The notes beneath the pieces are model-generated. The model was given only the letters and a program-made list of their open reading frames with translations. It ran no database searches and had not been told where the DNA came from. This document shows positions 21,023 to 54,271 of a stretch of DNA of 64,000 nt, piece after piece. Each line of letters starts with the position of its first letter. Positions within the stretch are counted from its first letter, which is position 1. The translations under genes and the position numbers were made by a program. The stretch comes from an uncultured archaeon. Its GTDB lineage: Archaea; EX4484-52; JAADEF01. The DNA lies in assembly GCA_964407715.1 (NCBI GenBank), contig CAYOWP010000001.1, positions 32,001 to 96,000 on the forward strand. The letters are read 5' to 3'.

Positions 21023-21311
21023 GATTGTTGGTTATGGAGACTTTGTGAGAGGGTTTAGATTGATTGGGGTTAAAAACATTATGCTTATCAAAATAGGTTC
21101 AGAGAGCCATGTGGAGTCATTATTAGAGGAGGATATTCCACTAGTGATATTAGATGGAAGGGTCTTTGAGAAATTAAAACCATATATCAAGGATAAGATT
21201 ATTACCTCAAAAAAACCTTTGTTTTTTGTGTTAAATCCAGAGAAAAGTGATGATGAGAGCATGAGATTAATGATTAAGAGAGCATTAGGTGTTGAGATAG
21301 AGAACATATAA
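21015..21311 (+). CDS. atpF: A/V-type ATP synthase subunit F
   Basis: GFRLIGV, IKRALGV. Confidence 0.9.
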   Translation: MIKIVGYGDFVRGFRLIGVKNIMLIKIGSESHVESLLEEDIPLVILDGRVFEKLKPYIKDKIITSKKPLFFVLNPEKSDDESMRLMIKRALGVEIENI

Positions 21312-21329
21312 AATATGTGGGTGATTAAT

Positions 21330-23081
21330 ATGCCAAAAAAGGAGGGAAGGATTTATAGAGTATCTGGTCCTGTAATTATAGCAGAGAATTTGGATGCTAA
21401 TATGTATGATGTTGTCTATGTAGGGGAGGAAGAGCTTATAGGAGAGGTTATCCAGATTGATGGTAATAGAGTTACTGTTCAGGTTTATGAGGACACATCA
21501 GGCTTAAAACCTGGAGAAAAGGTTATAACTTATAATCAACCTTTGACAGTAGAGTTGGGCCCAGGGATATTAAAGAGTATTTATGATGGAATTCAAAGAC
21601 CACTAGATGTACTTAAGGGCTTGCAGGGAGATTTCATTAAAAGAGGAGCAAGAGTTAATGCCTTAGATAGAAAAAAGAAATGGAAGTTTAAGCCATTAGT
21701 CAAAAAGGGAGATGTAGTGAAGGCAGGAGATATTATAGGAGAGGTCAAAGAAACGGATCTCATTACTCACAAAATACTTGTGCCTCCTAACTATCGTGGA
21801 GGTAAAGTGGTTGAGATTAAAGATGGATCCTTTAGTGTTGAGGAGGTTATTGCAAAGTTGGATAGTGGTGAAGAAATAAAGATGATGCATATATGGCCAA
21901 TTAGAAAACCTAGACCTTATAAAGAAAAGTTACCTCCAGTTGTGCCAATGATTACTGGCATGAGAATTTTGGATGCTCTCTTTCCTATTGCAAAAGGAGG
22001 AACTGCAGCCATACCTGGGCCATTTGGTTCTGGTAAGACAGTCACACAACAAAGTTTGGCAAAATATTCGGATGCCCAGGTTATTGTTTATATTGGATGT
22101 GGGGAGCGTGGCAATGAGATGACAGAAGTGCTTGAGGAATTTCCTGAATTAATAGACCCTAATAGCGGTAAGCCATTAATGAATCGTACTGTCTTAGTGG
22201 CTAACACATCAAACATGCCTGTTGCAGCAAGAGAGGCAAGTATCTATACTGGGATTACGCTTGCTGAGTACTATAGGGACATGGGATATGATGTTGCTCT
22301 TATGGCTGACTCAACTTCAAGATGGGCAGAGGCTATGAGGGAGATAAGCTCTAGGTTGGAGGAGATTCCTGGAGAAGAGGGATATCCTGCAAAGCTTTCA
22401 TCTAAATTATCAGAGTTCTATGAAAGAGCAGGAAGAGTTGTGACTTTAAGCGGGAAAAAAGGATCTGTTACGGTTATTGGTGCTGTTTCTCCTCCTGGGG
22501 GAGACTTTTCAGAGCCTGTCACTCAAGGTACCTTGAGAATAGTAAAAGTATTCTGGGCTTTGGATGCAAAATTAGCAAGAAGAAAGCACTTTCCAGCCAT
22601 AAATTGGTTGCAAAGCTATAGCTTATATAAGGAAACCTTGTCAGAGTGGTTTGCTGAGAATGTTGCGAAGGATTGGGATAAGAAAATTAACCGAGCTATG
22701 AGCATACTTCAAGAAGAGGAGAAATTACAGGAGATTGTGCAGCTTGTTGGAAGTGATGCACTTCCTGATAAGGAGCAAGGAATTCTCTTAACTGCAAGGC
22801 TTTTAAGGGAGTTCTTTTTACAACAAAATGCATATGATGAGAATGATGCTTATAGCAATGTACAAAAGACAAACTTAATATTAGATGTTATATTGCAGGT
22901 TGATGACCTCATTAGAGATGCCATTTCTAAAGGCATAAAAGCCAAGGATCTTACTGGAATGAGGTCGCTTAGCAGAATAGCAGAGATAAGATATTCCAAG
23001 GATTATGCGAAGATTGCAAAAGAGGTAATGGAAGAGATAAAGGGAGAGATAGAAAATATAGAGAAATTATATGCTCAATGA
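21330..23081 (+). CDS. atpA: A/V-type ATP synthase subunit A
   Basis: PGPFGSGKTV, GCGERGNEM, no intein. Confidence 0.98.
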   Translation: MPKKEGRIYRVSGPVIIAENLDANMYDVVYVGEEELIGEVIQIDGNRVTVQVYEDTSGLKPGEKVITYNQPLTVELGPGILKSIYDGIQRPLDVLKGLQGDFIKRGARVNALDRKKKWKFKPLVKKGDVVKAGDIIGEVKETDLITHKILVPPNYRGGKVVEIKDGSFSVEEVIAKLDSGEEIKMMHIWPIRKPRPYKEKLPPVVPMITGMRILDALFPIAKGGTAAIPGPFGSGKTVTQQSLAKYSDAQVIVYIGCGERGNEMTEVLEEFPELIDPNSGKPLMNRTVLVANTSNMPVAAREASIYTGITLAEYYRDMGYDVALMADSTSRWAEAMREISSRLEEIPGEEGYPAKLSSKLSEFYERAGRVVTLSGKKGSVTVIGAVSPPGGDFSEPVTQGTLRIVKVFWALDAKLARRKHFPAINWLQSYSLYKETLSEWFAENVAKDWDKKINRAMSILQEEEKLQEIVQLVGSDALPDKEQGILLTARLLREFFLQQNAYDENDAYSNVQKTNLILDVILQVDDLIRDAISKGIKAKDLTGMRSLSRIAEIRYSKDYAKIAKEVMEEIKGEIENIEKLYAQ

Positions 23082-33874: not shown

Positions 33875-34593
33875 TGATTATGCAAAAAGGGAAAACTAAG
33901 GAAAATGTTATTGTTAAGGTACGTAATTTAAAAAGATATTATGGTAAAGGTAGCGCCTTAACTAAGGCCTTGGATGGAGTTGATTTTGAGATTTATAAAG
34001 GAGAGTTTTTAGGGATCATGGGCCCTAGTGGTTCTGGCAAATCTACTCTTTTACATTTATTAGGCTTATTGGATAAGCCTACGGATGGAGAGATTTATTT
34101 TTTAGGAGAGAGAATTGATACATTACCTGAGCATAAAAAAACAAGATTTAGGTTGGAAAAGATTGGTTATGTTTTTCAACAATACCGATTGATACCAGAG
34201 TTAAGGGCATATGAGAATGTTATGCTTCCTTTTGTTATGCGAACAGGAGATTTTATAAAAGCCAAGAAATGCGCGATAGAGATATTAAAGAAAGTAGGTA
34301 TTGGATATGTGTGGGATCACTATCCATTTGAGCTTTCAGGTGGTGAACAGCAAAGGGTTGCTATAGCAAGGGCATTGGTTAATGATCCTGTTATTATATA
34401 TGCGGATGAACCTACAGCAAGTCTTGATACGAATTCTGGTGAAATAATAATGAATCTTTTTATGGAAATAAATAAGAAGTATAATCATACTGTAGTGGTT
34501 GTAAGTCATGAGCCAGAGCACAAACGATATTTTGATAGAATCATCTACATTAGAAATGGTAAAATAGAGAGGATTGAGAGGAGAAAAGGATAG
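33871..34593 (+). CDS. ABC transporter ATP-binding protein (LolD-like)
   Basis: GPSGSGKST, LSGGEQQRV, ADEPT. Confidence 0.95.
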   Translation: MMIMQKGKTKENVIVKVRNLKRYYGKGSALTKALDGVDFEIYKGEFLGIMGPSGSGKSTLLHLLGLLDKPTDGEIYFLGERIDTLPEHKKTRFRLEKIGYVFQQYRLIPELRAYENVMLPFVMRTGDFIKAKKCAIEILKKVGIGYVWDHYPFELSGGEQQRVAIARALVNDPVIIYADEPTASLDTNSGEIIMNLFMEINKKYNHTVVVVSHEPEHKRYFDRIIYIRNGKIERIERRKG

Positions 34594-40375: not shown

Positions 40376-41233
40376 TCATATTAGCTCATCAAGAGGATTC
40401 CTAACTTTTCTTAATTCCTCTAAACTAACCTTGGTATATATTTGGGTGGTTTGTAAGTTGGCATGTCCAAGGAGTTCTTGGATCTTCCTTAAACTTTCAC
40501 CTTGCTCCAACAAATGTGTTGCAAATGTATGCCTGAGTACATGAGGAGTTACCTCTTTTTGAATTGCTGCTTCTTCCCTTAATCTTTGAATAATCTTTTG
40601 AACCAATCTAACAGAAATGTGGTTTCTTTTATGCTTGGAAAAGAACACATAATCTTCGCCAACAAGATTATGCTTGTTGAAGTATCTTCTTAGAAGATCA
40701 ACAATTTTCTCTCCTAAAACGACAATACGATCTTTTTTCCCTTTTCCTCCCCTGACCCTTAAGATTCTTTCATTCAAATCAAAATCTTTAACTTTAAGAT
40801 TAACCAATTCACTCACTCTTAAACCAGTGGAATAAAGGAGGAGGCATATCATTTTGTCTCTGTCTTTTTCAGCAGTATTGATGAGCCTTTTAACCTCTTC
40901 TCGCGTTAGCACTATTGGTAGCTTTTTGTCTCTTTTTGGTGTAGGTAAATCCTCTTCGCTAATTCTAAGGTTTTTGATTCTTTTTAAGTAGAAAACGATT
41001 GCTGCTTTAACTGCAGCAATGCTTGATGGAGTATAGCCTTCTTCATCTATAAGATATGATAGAAATCTCTTTGCAGAATCTACAGATATCTTTAATCCTT
41101 TCTTTTCAATGTATCTAAGATACATATTCACATGAATAAGATATGACTTCAAGGTTTGCTCGGTATATCCACTCAACAAAATCTCTGACCTAAGCTTCTC
41201 CAATTCCTGCTGAATCCTTTTATTTGTTTCCAT
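40376..41233 (-). CDS. xerA: tyrosine recombinase XerA
   Basis: TGLRVSE, GKGKKDR, HVLRHTFATH, LLGH..TTQIY; no IntI-specific insertion. Confidence 0.9.
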   Translation of the reverse strand: METNKRIQQELEKLRSEILLSGYTEQTLKSYLIHVNMYLRYIEKKGLKISVDSAKRFLSYLIDEEGYTPSSIAAVKAAIVFYLKRIKNLRISEEDLPTPKRDKKLPIVLTREEVKRLINTAEKDRDKMICLLLYSTGLRVSELVNLKVKDFDLNERILRVRGGKGKKDRIVVLGEKIVDLLRRYFNKHNLVGEDYVFFSKHKRNHISVRLVQKIIQRLREEAAIQKEVTPHVLRHTFATHLLEQGESLRKIQELLGHANLQTTQIYTKVSLEELRKVRNPLDELI

Positions 41234-48270: not shown

Positions 48271-48786
48271 CGGCTTTATTTCTATCTTAGTGTTGCATCC
48301 TTTGACATCTTCTCCAAATAAATATCCCAACCATAAACGAGGATATCCGAGATAAGGTATTCTATAGATTACTTTTCCCTCTACATTCTCAATTGGTATT
48401 AGCCAAGGGTCAGGTTGAGAGTTATTATCTCCCCATGCAACCACATATTTATGCGAATCTTCAAGTAATTTCTTATATGCTCTATGAACTATCAACCTAT
48501 CCTGAAGAGGCTCATAATATACAATAATTGTAGAATTTGGATCCTTCCATTTTTCATTAGCAACAATCTCATCCCACGAGACACCTTTAACAATGATTAC
48601 ATCTCCTCTCTCCAATGTTGGTACCATTGAACAAGACACCACAACTAACATTGGATAATCTGTTCCCAAAGCCAATCCCAAACCTTTATAAAGACAAACT
48701 GCTAAAATAAAAGCGATTATTACATCCTTAAGGTTTTCCCAAACATATGCTTTTAGAAACCTTATGATCTTTTTTCTTTCTGACAT
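48256..48786 (-). CDS. sec11: signal peptidase I (S26B, Sec11-like)
   Basis: VVSCSMVPTLERGD, IVHR, GDNN..D, IPYLG. Confidence 0.92.
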   Translation of the reverse strand: MSERKKIIRFLKAYVWENLKDVIIAFILAVCLYKGLGLALGTDYPMLVVVSCSMVPTLERGDVIIVKGVSWDEIVANEKWKDPNSTIIVYYEPLQDRLIVHRAYKKLLEDSHKYVVAWGDNNSQPDPWLIPIENVEGKVIYRIPYLGYPRLWLGYLFGEDVKGCNTKIEIKPGVVQ

Positions 48787-50515: not shown

Positions 50516-50679
50516 ATGAGATCTATAAGATAACATTATTTTCATTTTATATTCTCCATTATATATTTTTAAGTATATTAACATAATTATGTTTAATCAC
50601 TACAATATATATTTTGAAATGTTAAAATCACTTAAAAGTAGTGAAAAGGAATTTTGTGGCTCCTTTATCTTTCATATGT

Positions 50680-51255
50680 TTATGCGAACAAAAATTCAGT
50701 TAACGAAAAAATGTGCTTCTTGATATCTCTCAGGTTTGCAGCATGGTAATCTCAATAAAGGGTTAGCTGCTTTCTAACCGCTTCGGAAAGGTTAGTATGT
50801 TCTGATATGCTATTGATAAAGTACTCTTCCTGTTAACCAATATTTTATTTTGAACCCTCTCGCAGCATACTACCCTCTACAAAAGCCATCAATGTGTTCG
50901 CATAAGGTTTATTATGCGAATTTTATTACTTGGTTAAGGGAAAGCATAGCCATATCCAAAAACCACTTTCAAGCAGCTAACCCTTTATTGAGGTTACCAT
51001 GCAGCAATGTGGTTGTGAAAGTGATTTCCTCCCATTAACCATTTTTATTTTGGTTAACGGGCAGCATAACCTATTCATTCAGCATATCGAAGCAGCTAAC
51101 CTTCTTAAGCGGTTAGTATGCTGCAATGTGCCTTAAAGAGGTGATATCCTCCCGTTAACCTTTTATTTTAAATAAAAATGGTTAAGGGGAAGAATCCCTT
51201 CTTAAAAAAAGTGTATCGAAGCAGCTAACCTTTATAGAAGGAATTGTTCGCATAA
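50680..51255. repeat. palindrome arrays (units 50698-50838, 50932-51040, 51052-51160, partial from 51180) bracketed by TTATGCGAACA/TGTTCGCATAA arms
   Basis: Arms at 50680-50690, 50895-50905, 50912-50922, 51245-51255. Confidence 0.9.
50895..50922. other. dif-like Xer recombination site candidate
   Basis: TGTTCGCATAA-GGTTTA-TTATGCGAATT: 11-6-11 with the CATAA/TTATG core of dif sites; xerA about 10 kb away. Confidence 0.6.
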
Positions 51256-51325
51256 AAATATTTCCTTTAAGATATATTTTGCAGTGTATTAACATATTTT
51301 TGTTGAAATACTATGAAATATATAT

Positions 51326-51658
51326 TTGATGATATATAATTGGGGACATAGAAATCGTAAAAATTTTAAAACTTTTCTATTTAAAGAAAAAATAAATATT
51401 CCTACATATTATGGGATGTTAGAATATAAAGGACATTATTTTCTTATCATGGAAAAAATAAATGGAATAACTTTAGCAGATCTCTATAACGACAAGGAGA
51501 TTCAATATAAGATAATAAGAAACATTGAAAAGAAACTAGAAAAGATCCCTAAAATAAAAGAAGTTAAAGACAGACATGCATATAATGTTATGATAAATAA
51601 CAAAAACAAACTTTATCTTATTGATTTAGAAGGAATAAAGATAAATGATTTCGCATAA
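51326..51658 (+). pseudogene. protein-kinase-like fragment (RIO/Bud32/APH-like C-lobe)
   Basis: LIMEKINGITL, DRHAYNVMI, LYLIDLE; N-lobe Gly loop/Lys absent. Confidence 0.55.
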
Positions 51659-51739
51659 CCTGAAAAAATAAAATATATATTAGAATATATACAATATTGA
51701 ATAGAAATATTTTTAAAATGTAACTACTATATAATAATT

Positions 51740-52306
51740 ATGGATGGAAATTATAAAAAGAAAATATCTCGTAGGGAGTTTTTAGAGAGGTCTTTGATTT
51801 TAGGGGGAGCATCCTGTGTTGCATTGAGTGGACTTTATAATATTGCCAAACAATTTTTTCCTTCACTATCACATATTTATTATGAAAATCAATTCAACAA
51901 TATCATCAAAAAGAGTGAAAGAAAATATAATTATGTCCGTTTATCTAACATTAAAAGTGCTAAAGAAATGTTAAATAGGATCTATATGGAAAAGAATATG
52001 ATACTAACCATCTATGCAAATGCCAAAGATGTTAAAGAGAAAGGGATAATAGAGAATGTTTATAGATGTATAGTAAAAGAAGTATACAAGCAAAATCCCA
52101 AATTAGTAATAGATTATGCAAAACAAATGCTAAATAAAGATCCTTTTAAAAACCATGATATTTCTTTATATTTTGTGATTAAACCCAACAAGTCATCAAA
52201 TCTTATAATGTATGATTCTTATAAAAATAAGGGAGTTATCATAAATGCTGCGAATCTCTCTAAAACCACTTATATTATTTCCTATTCTGTTTTTTCATTA
52301 AGATAG
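51740..52306 (+). CDS. hypothetical protein with twin-arginine-like signal
   Basis: ISRREFL followed by a hydrophobic stretch. Confidence 0.65.
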   Translation: MDGNYKKKISRREFLERSLILGGASCVALSGLYNIAKQFFPSLSHIYYENQFNNIIKKSERKYNYVRLSNIKSAKEMLNRIYMEKNMILTIYANAKDVKEKGIIENVYRCIVKEVYKQNPKLVIDYAKQMLNKDPFKNHDISLYFVIKPNKSSNLIMYDSYKNKGVIINAANLSKTTYIISYSVFSLR

Positions 52307-54040: not shown

Positions 54041-54271
54041 TCAACCTCCTTTAATTCTTTTTCTAAGAGGATTTTTGTGTTTGATTGTTTTTAAGTGTAT
54101 TTCCTTTGCTTTCCTATATTTCTTTGTCCATTTTACTTTTGCAGGATTTCTCATATGAAAGTTCGCATAACATTTATGAGAGCAGAAGTAAAATACTTCT
54201 CCATTATTTTTTACAAGCATTATTCCTTTACCCTCTTTCACATTATTACCACAAAATGCACATATAAACAT
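54041..54271 (-). CDS. rpl24e: 50S ribosomal protein L24e
   Basis: CAFCG, FCSHKC, RNPAKVKWT. Confidence 0.95.
   Translation of the reverse strand: MFICAFCGNNVKEGKGIMLVKNNGEVFYFCSHKCYANFHMRNPAKVKWTKKYRKAKEIHLKTIKHKNPLRKRIKGG

What the first reader, a model, noticed from the sequence alone, without database searches (positions are those of the whole stretch)
50680..51255. Repeat modules bounded by Xer-like arms and fused through an 11-6-11 dif-like site
Seen: TTATGCGAACA (50680-50690)...array...TGTTCGCATAA-GGTTTA-TTATGCGAATT (50895-50922)...array...TGTTCGCATAA (51245-51255). That is two consecutive modules, each enclosed by inverted 11-bp arms. Established: dif sites are 11-6-11 with a CATAA-N6-TTATG core (E. 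coli GGTGCGCATAA TGTATA TTATGTTAAAT), and archaea use a single XerA on near-symmetric sites. Inference: this is either the chromosomal dif accumulating repeat cassettes by XerA recombination (pdif/IMEX-like cargo made of non-coding palindromes), or a third type of element end. The two outer positions are half-sites only.
Basis: partly seen in the sequence, partly recalled or inferred. Interest (0 to 1): 0.75.

Follow-up and report, generated by a model that had tools for sequence, protein, structure and literature searches.

The report
Archaeal dif site with polar half-sites
The central palindrome is almost certainly the chromosome-dimer resolution site (dif) of a tiny DPANN archaeon, and the two outer "arms" belong to a larger set of single dif-arm copies that all point towards dif, whereas the hairpin repeats between them are the genome's ordinary filler repeats, not cargo.

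Summary
TTATGCGAACA/TGTTCGCATAA lie at 50680, 50895 and 51245, with a 9/11 arm at 50912. The 28-mer at 50895-50922 is the only full site in the assembly.

I read it as dif:
- The same palindrome, with a variable spacer, is single-copy in related genomes.
- The genome's only tyrosine recombinase is an XerA, 9.7 kb away.
- xerA-dif linkage recurs across the order.

The "repeat cassette" reading fails:
- The array is a genome-wide hairpin family in 141 clusters, and only 3 clusters abut an arm.
- Two relatives keep the arm-dif-arm layout but hold orphan ORFs there instead of hairpins.

The new result is that the exact 9-mer arm TTATGCGAA is concentrated and polarised on the dif contig.
- With the locus masked, 14 of its 23 copies lie on that contig, rank 1 of 26,926 words.
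- All 14 flip orientation exactly at dif, rank 1 of 2,522 words.
- Gene orientation, synonymous variants and one-mismatch variants do not explain this.

Best reading: dif plus selected, polar, lone XerA half-sites marking the terminus region, like XDS or KOPS. Their function is inferred. The long-range evidence rests on one MAG contig. The scan had noted the hairpin family before, but not this.

The parts
50895..50922 (.). dif site: TGTTCGCATAA-GGTTTA-TTATGCGAATT (11-6-11, arms 9/11 complementary)
   Evidence: Only full site in the assembly. [T/G]TCGCATAA-N6-TTATGCGA[A/C] is present once in 13 of 41 genomes of the order at <=2 mismatches, 11 of them with clean palindromic arms; the reversed control matched in 1 of 41. 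The same palindrome occurs in 119 or more bacterial and archaeal loci.
40376..41233 (-). xerA, the only tyrosine recombinase gene of the assembly (285 aa), 9,662 nt from dif
   Evidence: PF00589 gives 1 match in the genome. NCBIfam NF040815 recomb_XerA_Arch scores 261 bits against a cut-off of 220. Best solved structures are P. abyssi XerA 4a8e (E 2.8e-53) and T. acidophilum XerA 5hxy.
50680..50690 (+). Lone half-site, left of dif (TTATGCGAACA), 217 nt from the left dif arm
   Evidence: The partner arm matches 4/11.
51245..51255 (-). Lone half-site, right of dif (TGTTCGCATAA on +)
   Evidence: The partner arm matches 4-5/11.
51650..51658 (-). Lone half-site (TTCGCATAA on +). Its TAA is the stop codon of ORF 51326-51658.
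54162..54170 (-). Lone half-site right of dif, inside a small minus-strand ORF
48449..48457 (+). Lone half-site left of dif, antisense to the signal-peptidase-like gene
34235..34245 (+). Lone half-site left of dif (exact 11-mer), inside a 245-aa ORF
23003..23011 (+). Lone half-site left of dif, inside a 589-aa ORF
50692..50844 (-). Hairpin-repeat units (genome-wide family) filling the space between the left half-site and dif. Not part of the Xer system.
   Evidence: nhmmer hits at C1:82692-82844. The family has 854 two-strand hits, 43.5 kb and 141 clusters.
50929..51241 (+). Hairpin-repeat units A, B and a truncated C, filling the space between dif and the right half-site. Not part of the Xer system.
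50543..50624 (+). Local promoter-like palindromic element e1. Copies e2 (51253-51329) and e3 (51670-51745) precede the two small ORFs right of dif.
   Evidence: nhmmer finds only these 3 copies in the genome. Similar stretches lie on the dif contig of G003.

Best explanation
The site at 50895-50922 is the chromosomal dif site. Two monomers of the genome's single XerA (window 40376-41233) bind the two inverted arms. They exchange strands across the 6-bp spacer GGTTTA and resolve chromosome dimers, as shown biochemically for Pyrococcus and Thermoplasma XerA. Here this is inferred from homology and site conservation (my odds about 0.9).

The outer 11-mers are not cassette ends. They are lone copies of the dif arm, the innermost of at least 14 further exact copies of TTATGCGAA spread over the whole 126-kb contig. 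Every copy left of dif reads TTATGCGAA on the + strand and every copy right of dif reads it on the - strand. Each lone site therefore turns its spacer-proximal TTA end away from dif.

I take them to be selected XerA monomer-binding sites that cannot recombine because they have no partner arm (odds about 0.6-0.65). I think they mark the dif/terminus region in a direction-dependent way. The most likely roles are a polar docking site or roadblock for something arriving from the origin side, namely the Smc-ScpAB complex that this genome encodes or a replication fork. This would be analogous to XerD/XDS in Bacillus or to KOPS (odds about 0.3; pure inference).

The hairpin arrays are copies of the genome's ubiquitous MITE-derived repeat. 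They filled the unconstrained DNA between constrained sites, which is why they stop within 1-8 nt of the lone arms and the right dif arm (about 23-50 nt short of the left dif arm).
For: dif identity:
- The palindrome is unique in the assembly.
- It is single-copy in 13 of 41 order-level relatives, and in 7 of 10 good-quality genomes. Arms are conserved and spacers differ. The reversed control matched in 1 of 41.
- The same palindrome occurs in 119 or more bacterial and archaeal loci.
- It shares TAA-N6-TTA and, by my hand count, 15/28 positions with the T. kodakarensis dif printed in PMC11840125.
- The sole tyrosine recombinase is XerA.
- xerA and dif lie on one contig in G000 (9.7 kb apart), G005 (8.9 kb), G017 (7 kb) and G006 (about 100 bp). 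In 6 of the 9 metagenome xerA loci that hold a candidate palindrome, out of 80 loci examined, the palindrome lies within 500 nt upstream of xerA.
- Orc1/Cdc6 genes lie on other contigs.

Lone half-sites:
- With the locus masked, TTATGCGAA ranks 1 of 26,926 9-mers for concentration on contig C1: 14 of 23 copies on 14.1% of the assembly, p=2.8e-7.
- It ranks 1 of 2,522 9-mers for polarity about dif: 14 of 14, 8 left and 6 right.
- For the variants TTATGCNAA, counts on C1 versus the rest are A 5/25, C 0/18, T 1/14, G 18/9.
- One-mismatch variants are neither enriched nor polar: 31 on C1 against 202 on the rest (C9 excluded), and 19 of 31 concordant.
- The copies sit in three sense frames and two antisense frames, and the 4 antisense copies also obey the polarity.
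- Coding-strand bias is only 60% (left) and 55% (right).
- The word is over-represented against its reversed control in all 5 genomes of the family: 27/11, 25/7, 34/5, 28/9 and 11/5. It is not over-represented in two families without this site: 16/17 and 25/27.
- The lone-arm/dif/lone-arm layout recurs in G001 (-508, +610) and G003 (-330, +289, +471, +1397) without hairpins.
- In G017, three copies within 115 nt lie in different frames.
- In G005 and G017 the first possible xerA start codon lies inside a copy of the arm. This suggests that XerA uses lone arms.
- Smc (847 aa, TIGR02168 604 bits against a cut-off of 567), ScpA and ScpB are encoded, all on C1.

Hairpins as filler.
Against: - The long-range pattern rests on one contig of one MAG, with n=14. 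No other genome of the family has a long dif contig.
- G001's copies do not map to orthologous positions or to C1-orthologous DNA, so positions are not conserved.
- Family f3 (arm TTATGCGAC) shows no extra copies on its dif contigs.
- In 119 mixed loci, extra arms are not polar: 29 of 50 concordant.
- Extra arms are rare in the 9 metagenome xerA loci with a site.
- Same-contig orientation concordance is also high in a control genome: G011, 6 of 7 adjacent pairs. I do not count that statistic.
- General skew indicators peak between about 81 and 100 kb of C1 rather than sharply at dif, which lies at 82.9 kb.
- In T. kodakarensis, XerA ChIP-seq showed dif as the binding site, and the dif-adjacent Smc boundary needed neither XerA nor dif (PMC11840125, passages).
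- No FtsK-type translocase scored above the cut-off.
- Binding of XerA to any of these sites is untested.
Confidence: 0.6

Rival explanations
1. Circular DNA modules are captured at dif by XerA recombination, as with IMEX elements or Acinetobacter pdif modules. The lone arms are the decayed junction sites of successive insertions.
For: - DNA next to dif is variable and orphan-rich. The four small ORFs that sit between arm and dif in G001 and G003 have no match in G000 at E<=1e-3 and no Pfam family.
- A methyltransferase gene about 0.6 kb from dif in G003 lies 28.5 kb from dif in G000.
- To the right of dif in G000 the order half-site, local promoter-like element, small ORF repeats twice.
- ORF 51326-51658 looks like a kinase fragment that ends in a half-site (ABC1, E 0.0026, below the cut-off).
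Against: - The outer sites have no partner arm, 3-5 of 11 matches.
- An attachment site lacking one arm would leave R-type arms left of dif and L-type arms right of dif. The opposite is seen. This is inference from the strand-exchange geometry.
- Arm copies lie inside large conserved genes up to 80 kb away, in several frames.
- The 'cargo' in this window is the genome-wide hairpin family, which elsewhere lacks arms.
- No contig joins across a module, and the layout is the same in two samples (contigs only).
Confidence: 0.12
2. The lone arms are by-products without function. They could arise from sequence spread by mis-targeted XerA activity or gene conversion near dif, or be a statistical accident of a single contig.
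For: - Positions are not conserved between G000 and G001.
- Only one long contig is available.
- The phenomenon is absent from family f3 and from most other dif loci.
Against: - Two unbiased genome-wide word scans both put the exact arm word at rank 1.
- Specificity for the exact 9-mer is sharp.
- The word is over-represented in all five genomes of the family.
- The near-dif layout recurs in three genomes.
- Hairpin arrays stop within 1-8 nt of the lone arms and the right dif arm (23-50 nt from the left dif arm), as expected if the arms are constrained.
Confidence: 0.15
3. The arms are terminal inverted repeats of a small transposable element (a 'third type of element end'). The dif-like palindrome would then be two such ends that happen to abut.
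For: - The outer arms extend to an 18-nt inverted repeat, 94% complementary (I14).
- The genome is rich in MITEs (earlier notes).
Against: - The 11-mer has only 5 copies in the assembly, 3 of them here.
- Elsewhere the 9-mer lies in coding DNA without a shared flank.
- The abutting 'ends' form a palindrome that is conserved as a single copy across an order and beyond, next to xerA.
Confidence: 0.03
4. The intergenic region is a replication origin, and the repeats and arms are initiator-binding boxes.
For: It is a long (1.1 kb), AT-rich, repeat-filled intergenic region with inverted repeats.
Against: - Both Orc1/Cdc6 genes lie on other contigs.
- The cumulative coding-strand and GC skews rise toward this region, which is the convergent, terminus-like pattern.
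- The repeats are genome-wide.
- The palindrome is of the dif type.
Confidence: 0.02

Closest known systems
Archaeal XerA/dif dimer-resolution system (Pyrococcus abyssi, Thermococcus kodakarensis, Thermoplasma acidophilum; PMC2958812 passages, PMC11840125 passages, PMC5357621 passages)
   Same: - A single XerA recombinase.
- A unique, non-coding 28-bp site of two 11-bp inverted arms and a 6-bp spacer with TAA-N6-TTA.
- No FtsK.
- The site is not next to an origin gene.
- xerA is sometimes adjacent to dif and sometimes kilobases away.
   Different: - The arm sequence (TTCGCATAA) is closer to the bacterial consensus than to the Thermococcales ATATAA type.
- The host is a DPANN archaeon.
- dif is surrounded by exact lone copies of its own arm, which the passages I read do not describe. 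In T. kodakarensis, XerA ChIP-seq gave dif as the binding site.
XerD/XDS of Bacillus subtilis (Karaboja et al. 2021). The paper is not held. I know it only through statements in PMC11840125 and PMC11894783; that XDS resemble half dif sites is my recollection.
   Same: - Dif-like sites that bind a Xer recombinase without serving recombination.
- They are scattered in the terminus region.
- The genome encodes Smc-ScpAB.
   Different: - The host is an archaeon with one Xer protein.
- The copies are strictly polar about dif.
- Function and binding are untested.
- In T. kodakarensis the dif-side Smc boundary is XerA-independent.
KOPS (FtsK-orienting polar sequences) and archaeal ASPS (PMC2958812, passages)
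   Same: Over-represented oriented words whose skew inverts at dif.
   Different: - KOPS and ASPS are unrelated in sequence to dif and are spread over whole replichores. ASPS are 4-mers.
- Here the polar word is the dif arm itself. It is concentrated on the dif contig (14 of 23 copies), and no FtsK was found above the cut-off.
IMEX elements and plasmid pdif modules (PMC5357621, passages on IMEX; pdif modules recalled)
   Same: Variable DNA next to dif, bounded by Xer-type sequences.
   Different: - Those elements are bounded by full, or half-degenerate but two-armed, sites.
- Here the outer sites are single arms in the orientation opposite to what integration would leave, and the 'cargo' is a genome-wide repeat.
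MatP/matS Ter macrodomain of E. coli (mentioned in PMC11894783 passage; details recalled)
   Same: A short specific site confined to the terminus part of the chromosome, about 14% or more of it here.
   Different: - matS is palindromic and non-polar, and is bound by a dedicated protein.
- Here the sites are asymmetric and identical to a recombinase half-site.

Membership tests
Xer/dif (archaeal XerA type) | 28-bp site: two about 11-bp inverted arms, a 6-bp spacer and a TAA-N6-TTA core | tested here: met
   TGTTCGCATAA-GGTTTA-TTATGCGAATT, arms 9/11 complementary.
Xer/dif (archaeal XerA type) | One site per chromosome, in non-coding DNA | tested here: met
   Only one full site in the 898-kb assembly, which is 92% complete. 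It lies in a 1.1-kb gap between ORFs.
Xer/dif (archaeal XerA type) | Site conserved in relatives, with arms conserved more than the spacer | tested here: met
   13 of 41 genomes of the order at <=2 mismatches (11 clean), each spacer different; the reversed control matched in 1 of 41.
Xer/dif (archaeal XerA type) | Cognate Xer recombinase encoded | tested here: met
   The single PF00589 hit is NF040815 XerA at 261 bits against a cut-off of 220; 4a8e E 2.8e-53. xerA is linked to dif in 4 genomes.
Xer/dif (archaeal XerA type) | Location in the replication-termination region or at the skew inversion | tested here: inconclusive
   Orc1/Cdc6 genes lie on other contigs. The cumulative GC and coding-strand curves have a broad apex at 81-100 kb of C1, with dif at 82.9 kb. 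The assembly is fragmented.
Xer/dif (archaeal XerA type) | XerA binds and recombines the site | not testable with these tools
   Needs EMSA or an in vitro recombination assay.
IMEX / pdif-type Xer cassettes | Element bounded by two two-armed Xer sites (one may be degenerate) | tested here: not met
   The partner arms of all five near-dif lone sites match 3-5 of 11.
IMEX / pdif-type Xer cassettes | The bounding sites travel with the cargo at other loci | tested here: not met
   3 of 141 hairpin clusters have an arm within 30 nt, 2 of them here.
IMEX / pdif-type Xer cassettes | Excised circle or empty site detectable | tested here: inconclusive
   No joint across a module in contigs of 4 runs. 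Contigs cannot show rare forms.
XDS-like Xer docking sites | Xer-arm-only sites dispersed around dif in the terminus region | tested here: met
   14 lone exact arms on the dif contig, against 9 on the other 86% of the assembly.
XDS-like Xer docking sites | Smc-ScpAB present | tested here: met
   Smc TIGR02168 at 604 bits against a cut-off of 567; ScpA 27.9 bits against 24.6; ScpB 111.7 bits.
XDS-like Xer docking sites | The Xer protein occupies the sites and unloads or stalls SMC | not testable with these tools
   Needs ChIP-seq or Hi-C, or in vitro assays.
KOPS-like polar guide sequences | Over-represented oriented word whose orientation switches at dif | tested here: met
   14 of 14, rank 1 of 2,522 9-mers. 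The cumulative skew apex lies at the locus.
KOPS-like polar guide sequences | FtsK/SpoIIIE translocase that reads the word | tested here: not met
   The best PF01580 hit scores 23.3 bits, below the cut-off of 24, and covers only a P-loop stretch.
MITE / transposon ends | Many copies of a TIR-bounded element with target-site duplications | tested here: not met
   The 11-mer has 5 copies in the genome, with no shared flanks elsewhere.

The most novel reading that the evidence does not exclude
In this FtsK-less DPANN lineage the XerA half-site has a second role as a polar chromosome-organisation signal. Lone dif arms, all facing away from dif, are concentrated over at least 126 kb around dif. They bind XerA monomers that mark the terminus domain and act directionally on Smc-ScpAB or on replication forks. 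This would be an archaeal functional counterpart of XDS, KOPS or Ter built from the recombinase's own site. In a sister family a copy of the arm on the xerA start codon may also provide autoregulation.
Probability: 0.3. Interest if true: 0.8.

Novelty: new variant of a known kind. Interest (0 to 1): 0.6.

Why it matters
How archaea without FtsK find and use dif, and how they define a terminus domain, is unsettled. The only polar words reported so far (ASPS) are 4-mers of unknown reader. In Thermococcus the dif-side Smc boundary turned out not to need XerA.

A lineage in which the exact dif arm is itself the most contig-concentrated and most polar word around dif gives a concrete, testable candidate for a protein-read polarity or terminus signal in archaea. 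The same recombinant XerA and a few oligonucleotides would test it.

It also gives a practical warning. In repeat-rich DPANN genomes, hairpin arrays that end at short conserved words can mimic cassettes.

Tried and rejected
- Rfam and tRNA scans of the window found only three tRNAs and nothing at the locus. Tandem Repeats Finder found no array there.
- I mapped G001's arm copies onto G000 to test polarity on a second genome. The two genomes are only about 70% identical and are rearranged. The copies map to other contigs or not at all, so the test was uninformative.
- I dropped same-contig orientation concordance as a polarity statistic, because a control genome without the site also shows it (G011, 6 of 7).
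- The metagenome scan with XerA found no close relative of this family (best 48% identity). It gave only general xerA-dif linkage.
- Genome-wide ASPS-type words (GTTG, GTTC, TGGT) give no sharp apex at dif on this contig.
- Read laying on four runs showed no joint across a module. One 88-nt skip inside hairpin unit B most likely comes from a paralogous repeat. These are contigs only, so the result is no evidence either way.
- Karaboja et al. 2021 (XDS) could not be read.
- No structure or complex prediction was run, because the tools cannot model protein-DNA binding.

Full report
**What is there**

The window is G000:C1:32001-96000 of an 898-kb, 16-contig, 32% GC assembly. The genes around the locus are archaeal: L21e, a DUF655 protein, aRF1, Ndk and L7Ae. 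Earlier notes of this scan call the organism a DPANN archaeon.

- TTATGCGAACA at 50680.
- TGTTCGCATAA-GGTTTA-TTATGCGAATT at 50895-50922.
- TGTTCGCATAA at 51245.

Dinucleotide shuffles of the window expect 0.01 copies of the 11-mer, and 4 are seen. They expect 0.47 copies of the 9-mer, and 9 are seen. No shuffle out of 100 reaches either count.

The outer sites are lone half-sites. Sequences at the position of a partner arm match 3-5 of 11. A second sample holds a contig spanning 50457-51326 with one substitution and one gap, so the layout is real.

**The central site is dif**

- The full palindrome is unique in the assembly.
- [T/G]TCGCATAA-N6-TTATGCGA[A/C] occurs once per genome in 13 of 41 genomes of the same order (7 of 10 good-quality ones) at up to 2 mismatches. 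Eleven have clean palindromic arms, two (G002, G013) look degenerate, and each has a different spacer. The reversed control pattern matched in 1 of 41.
- It has the TAA-N6-TTA core that PMC11840125 calls the most conserved feature of archaeal dif sites. By my hand count it shares 15 of 28 positions with the T. kodakarensis dif printed there.
- The genome has exactly one tyrosine recombinase, at window 40376-41233. It passes the NCBIfam XerA equivalog (261 bits, cut-off 220), and its best solved relatives are P. abyssi and T. acidophilum XerA.
- xerA and the site are on one contig in G000 (9.7 kb apart), G005 (8.9 kb), G017 (7 kb) and G006 (about 100 bp).
- Of 80 metagenome loci fetched with XerA, 9 hold a candidate palindrome. 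In 6 of those 9 it lies within 500 nt upstream of xerA.
- Both Orc1/Cdc6 genes are on other contigs.
- Cumulative GC and coding-strand curves on C1 rise towards a broad apex at 81-100 kb, and the site lies at 82.9 kb. That is compatible with a terminus but not sharp.

**The arrays are not cargo**

The units between the arms are about 110-120-nt hairpins. An iterated nhmmer profile finds 854 two-strand hits covering 43.5 kb (4.8% of the assembly) in 141 clusters on all contigs. Only 3 clusters have an arm copy within 30 nt of an edge: the two here and one on C5. This agrees with earlier notes on the same genome, which call the units MITE-derived filler.

Relatives G001 (same genus) and G003 (same family) have the same layout of lone arm, dif, lone arm(s), at -508/+610 and at -330/+289/+471/+1397. 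They have no hairpin units there and hold small ORFs instead.

My inference is that the hairpins invaded whatever DNA was free and stopped at constrained sequence. That explains why they end within 1-8 nt of the lone arms and the right dif arm; on the left side of dif the recognisable units end about 50 nt short of the arm.

**What the outer arms belong to**

The exact 9-mer TTATGCGAA occurs 27 times in the assembly, 18 of them on C1. With the locus masked:
- It is rank 1 of 26,926 9-mers for concentration on C1: 14 of 23 copies on 14.1% of the DNA, p=2.8e-7.
- It is rank 1 of 2,522 9-mers for polarity about the site: 14 of 14, 8 left on the + strand and 6 right on the - strand.

Controls:
- For TTATGCNAA, counts on C1 versus the rest are A 5/25, C 0/18, T 1/14, G 18/9.
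- One-mismatch variants are not enriched on C1 (31 against 202 on the rest, C9 excluded) and not polar (19 of 31).
- The copies lie in three sense and two antisense reading frames, and the four antisense copies obey the polarity too.
- Crude gene calls put only 60% of coding bases on + left of dif and 55% on - right of it.

The word is over-represented against its reversed control in all five genomes of the family (27/11, 25/7, 34/5, 28/9, 11/5). It is not over-represented in two families that lack the site (16/17, 25/27). In G017, three copies within 115 nt lie in different frames. In G005 and G017 the only possible start codon of xerA lies inside a copy of the arm. In one metagenome locus an arm lies 12 nt upstream of the xerA start.

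**Limits**

- The long-range result rests on one contig of one MAG.
- G001's copies do not map to orthologous positions.
- Family f3 shows no extra arms on its dif contigs.
- In 119 mixed loci, extra arms are not polar: 29 of 50.
- Same-contig concordance is uninformative, because the control genome G011 shows 6 of 7.
- In T. kodakarensis, XerA ChIP-seq gave dif as the binding site, and the Smc boundary beside dif needed TrmBL2, not XerA or dif (PMC11840125, passages).
- No FtsK was found above the cut-off.

**Mechanism**

Inferred from homology: XerA resolves dimers at the 28-mer.

Inferred: lone arms bind XerA monomers but cannot recombine. Every lone arm turns its spacer-proximal TTA end away from dif, towards whatever arrives from the origin side. 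The genome encodes Smc (847 aa), ScpA and ScpB, all on the dif contig.

The closest analogy is XerD/XDS in Bacillus, which I know only through PMC11840125 and PMC11894783 because the primary paper is not held. KOPS/ASPS is the closest analogy for the polarity (PMC2958812, passages).

**The cassette rival**

This rival keeps some weight because the DNA beside dif is orphan-rich and variable among relatives. A local promoter-like element also repeats with each small ORF.

However, integration through a one-armed attachment site would leave the opposite arm orientation. Arm copies inside large conserved genes 15-80 kb away also cannot be cassette ends.

**Verdict**

- The dif reading is supported.
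- The repeat-cassette reading is rejected.
- A polar, dif-centred set of lone XerA arms is the new and testable feature.

A word search of this scan's earlier notes for dif, XerA and half-sites found nothing. The hairpin family had been noted before in this genome.

Noticed in passing
G005:C7:47319-47327 (L153:19320) and G017:C15:71547-71555; L179:9978-9986: In two genomes of a sister family, the only possible xerA start codon is the ATG inside a copy of the dif arm (TT-ATG-CGA-AC), with no upstream in-frame start before the stop. In an unrelated metagenome locus an arm copy lies 12 nt upstream of the xerA start. This suggests XerA autoregulation through a lone half-site.
   Followed up: partly
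window 50543-50624, 51253-51329, 51670-51745: A promoter-like element of about 80 nt has only these three copies in the genome. Two of the three copies (e1, e2) carry the palindrome TTAACA-N6-TGTTKAA; all three have a TATA-like stretch. Copies e2 and e3 each directly precede a small ORF right of dif; e1 lies 56 nt upstream of the left lone arm. Similar stretches lie on the dif contig of G003 (L009:78 and 1110).
   Followed up: partly
window 51326-51658: A 110-aa ORF resembles the middle of an atypical kinase (Pfam ABC1, E 0.0026, below the cut-off). It ends with a stop codon that is part of a lone dif arm, so it may be a gene fragment truncated at the arm.
   Followed up: no
G000 contigs C8 and C9: 43.7 kb of C8 (7161-50856) is 100% identical to the reverse complement of C9. 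The assembly therefore holds about 44 kb twice, and its non-redundant size is about 855 kb.
   Followed up: yes
L015, L019, L029, L061, L098, L121 (genome-contig loci): In several unrelated bacterial contigs and one archaeal contig, the same palindrome is followed by an arm copy at +32 and an inverted one at +88/89. This recurring fixed arrangement looks like a mobile or structured element carrying dif-like arms.
   Followed up: no
G000:C1 whole contig: The words TGTTGAGA (15 of 15), GTTGAGAA (12 of 12) and TTGAGAAG (17 of 18) are also almost perfectly polar about the dif position. They contain GTTG, the ASPS word of Pyrococcus. It is unclear whether this is a coding bias or a second polar signal.
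   Followed up: no
G000:C1:2891-5434 (smc), 109717-110849 (scpB, scpA), 72376-73233 (xerA), 82895-82922 (dif): smc (unusually short, 847 aa), scpA, scpB, xerA and dif all lie on one 126-kb contig. One lone arm lies in smc, and one lies at the 5' end of the scpA frame.
   Followed up: partly
G006:C25:2788-3585 and 21152-21919: A genome of family f3 has two XerA-like genes on its dif contig, one about 100 bp from dif (an xerA/dif module).
   Followed up: no
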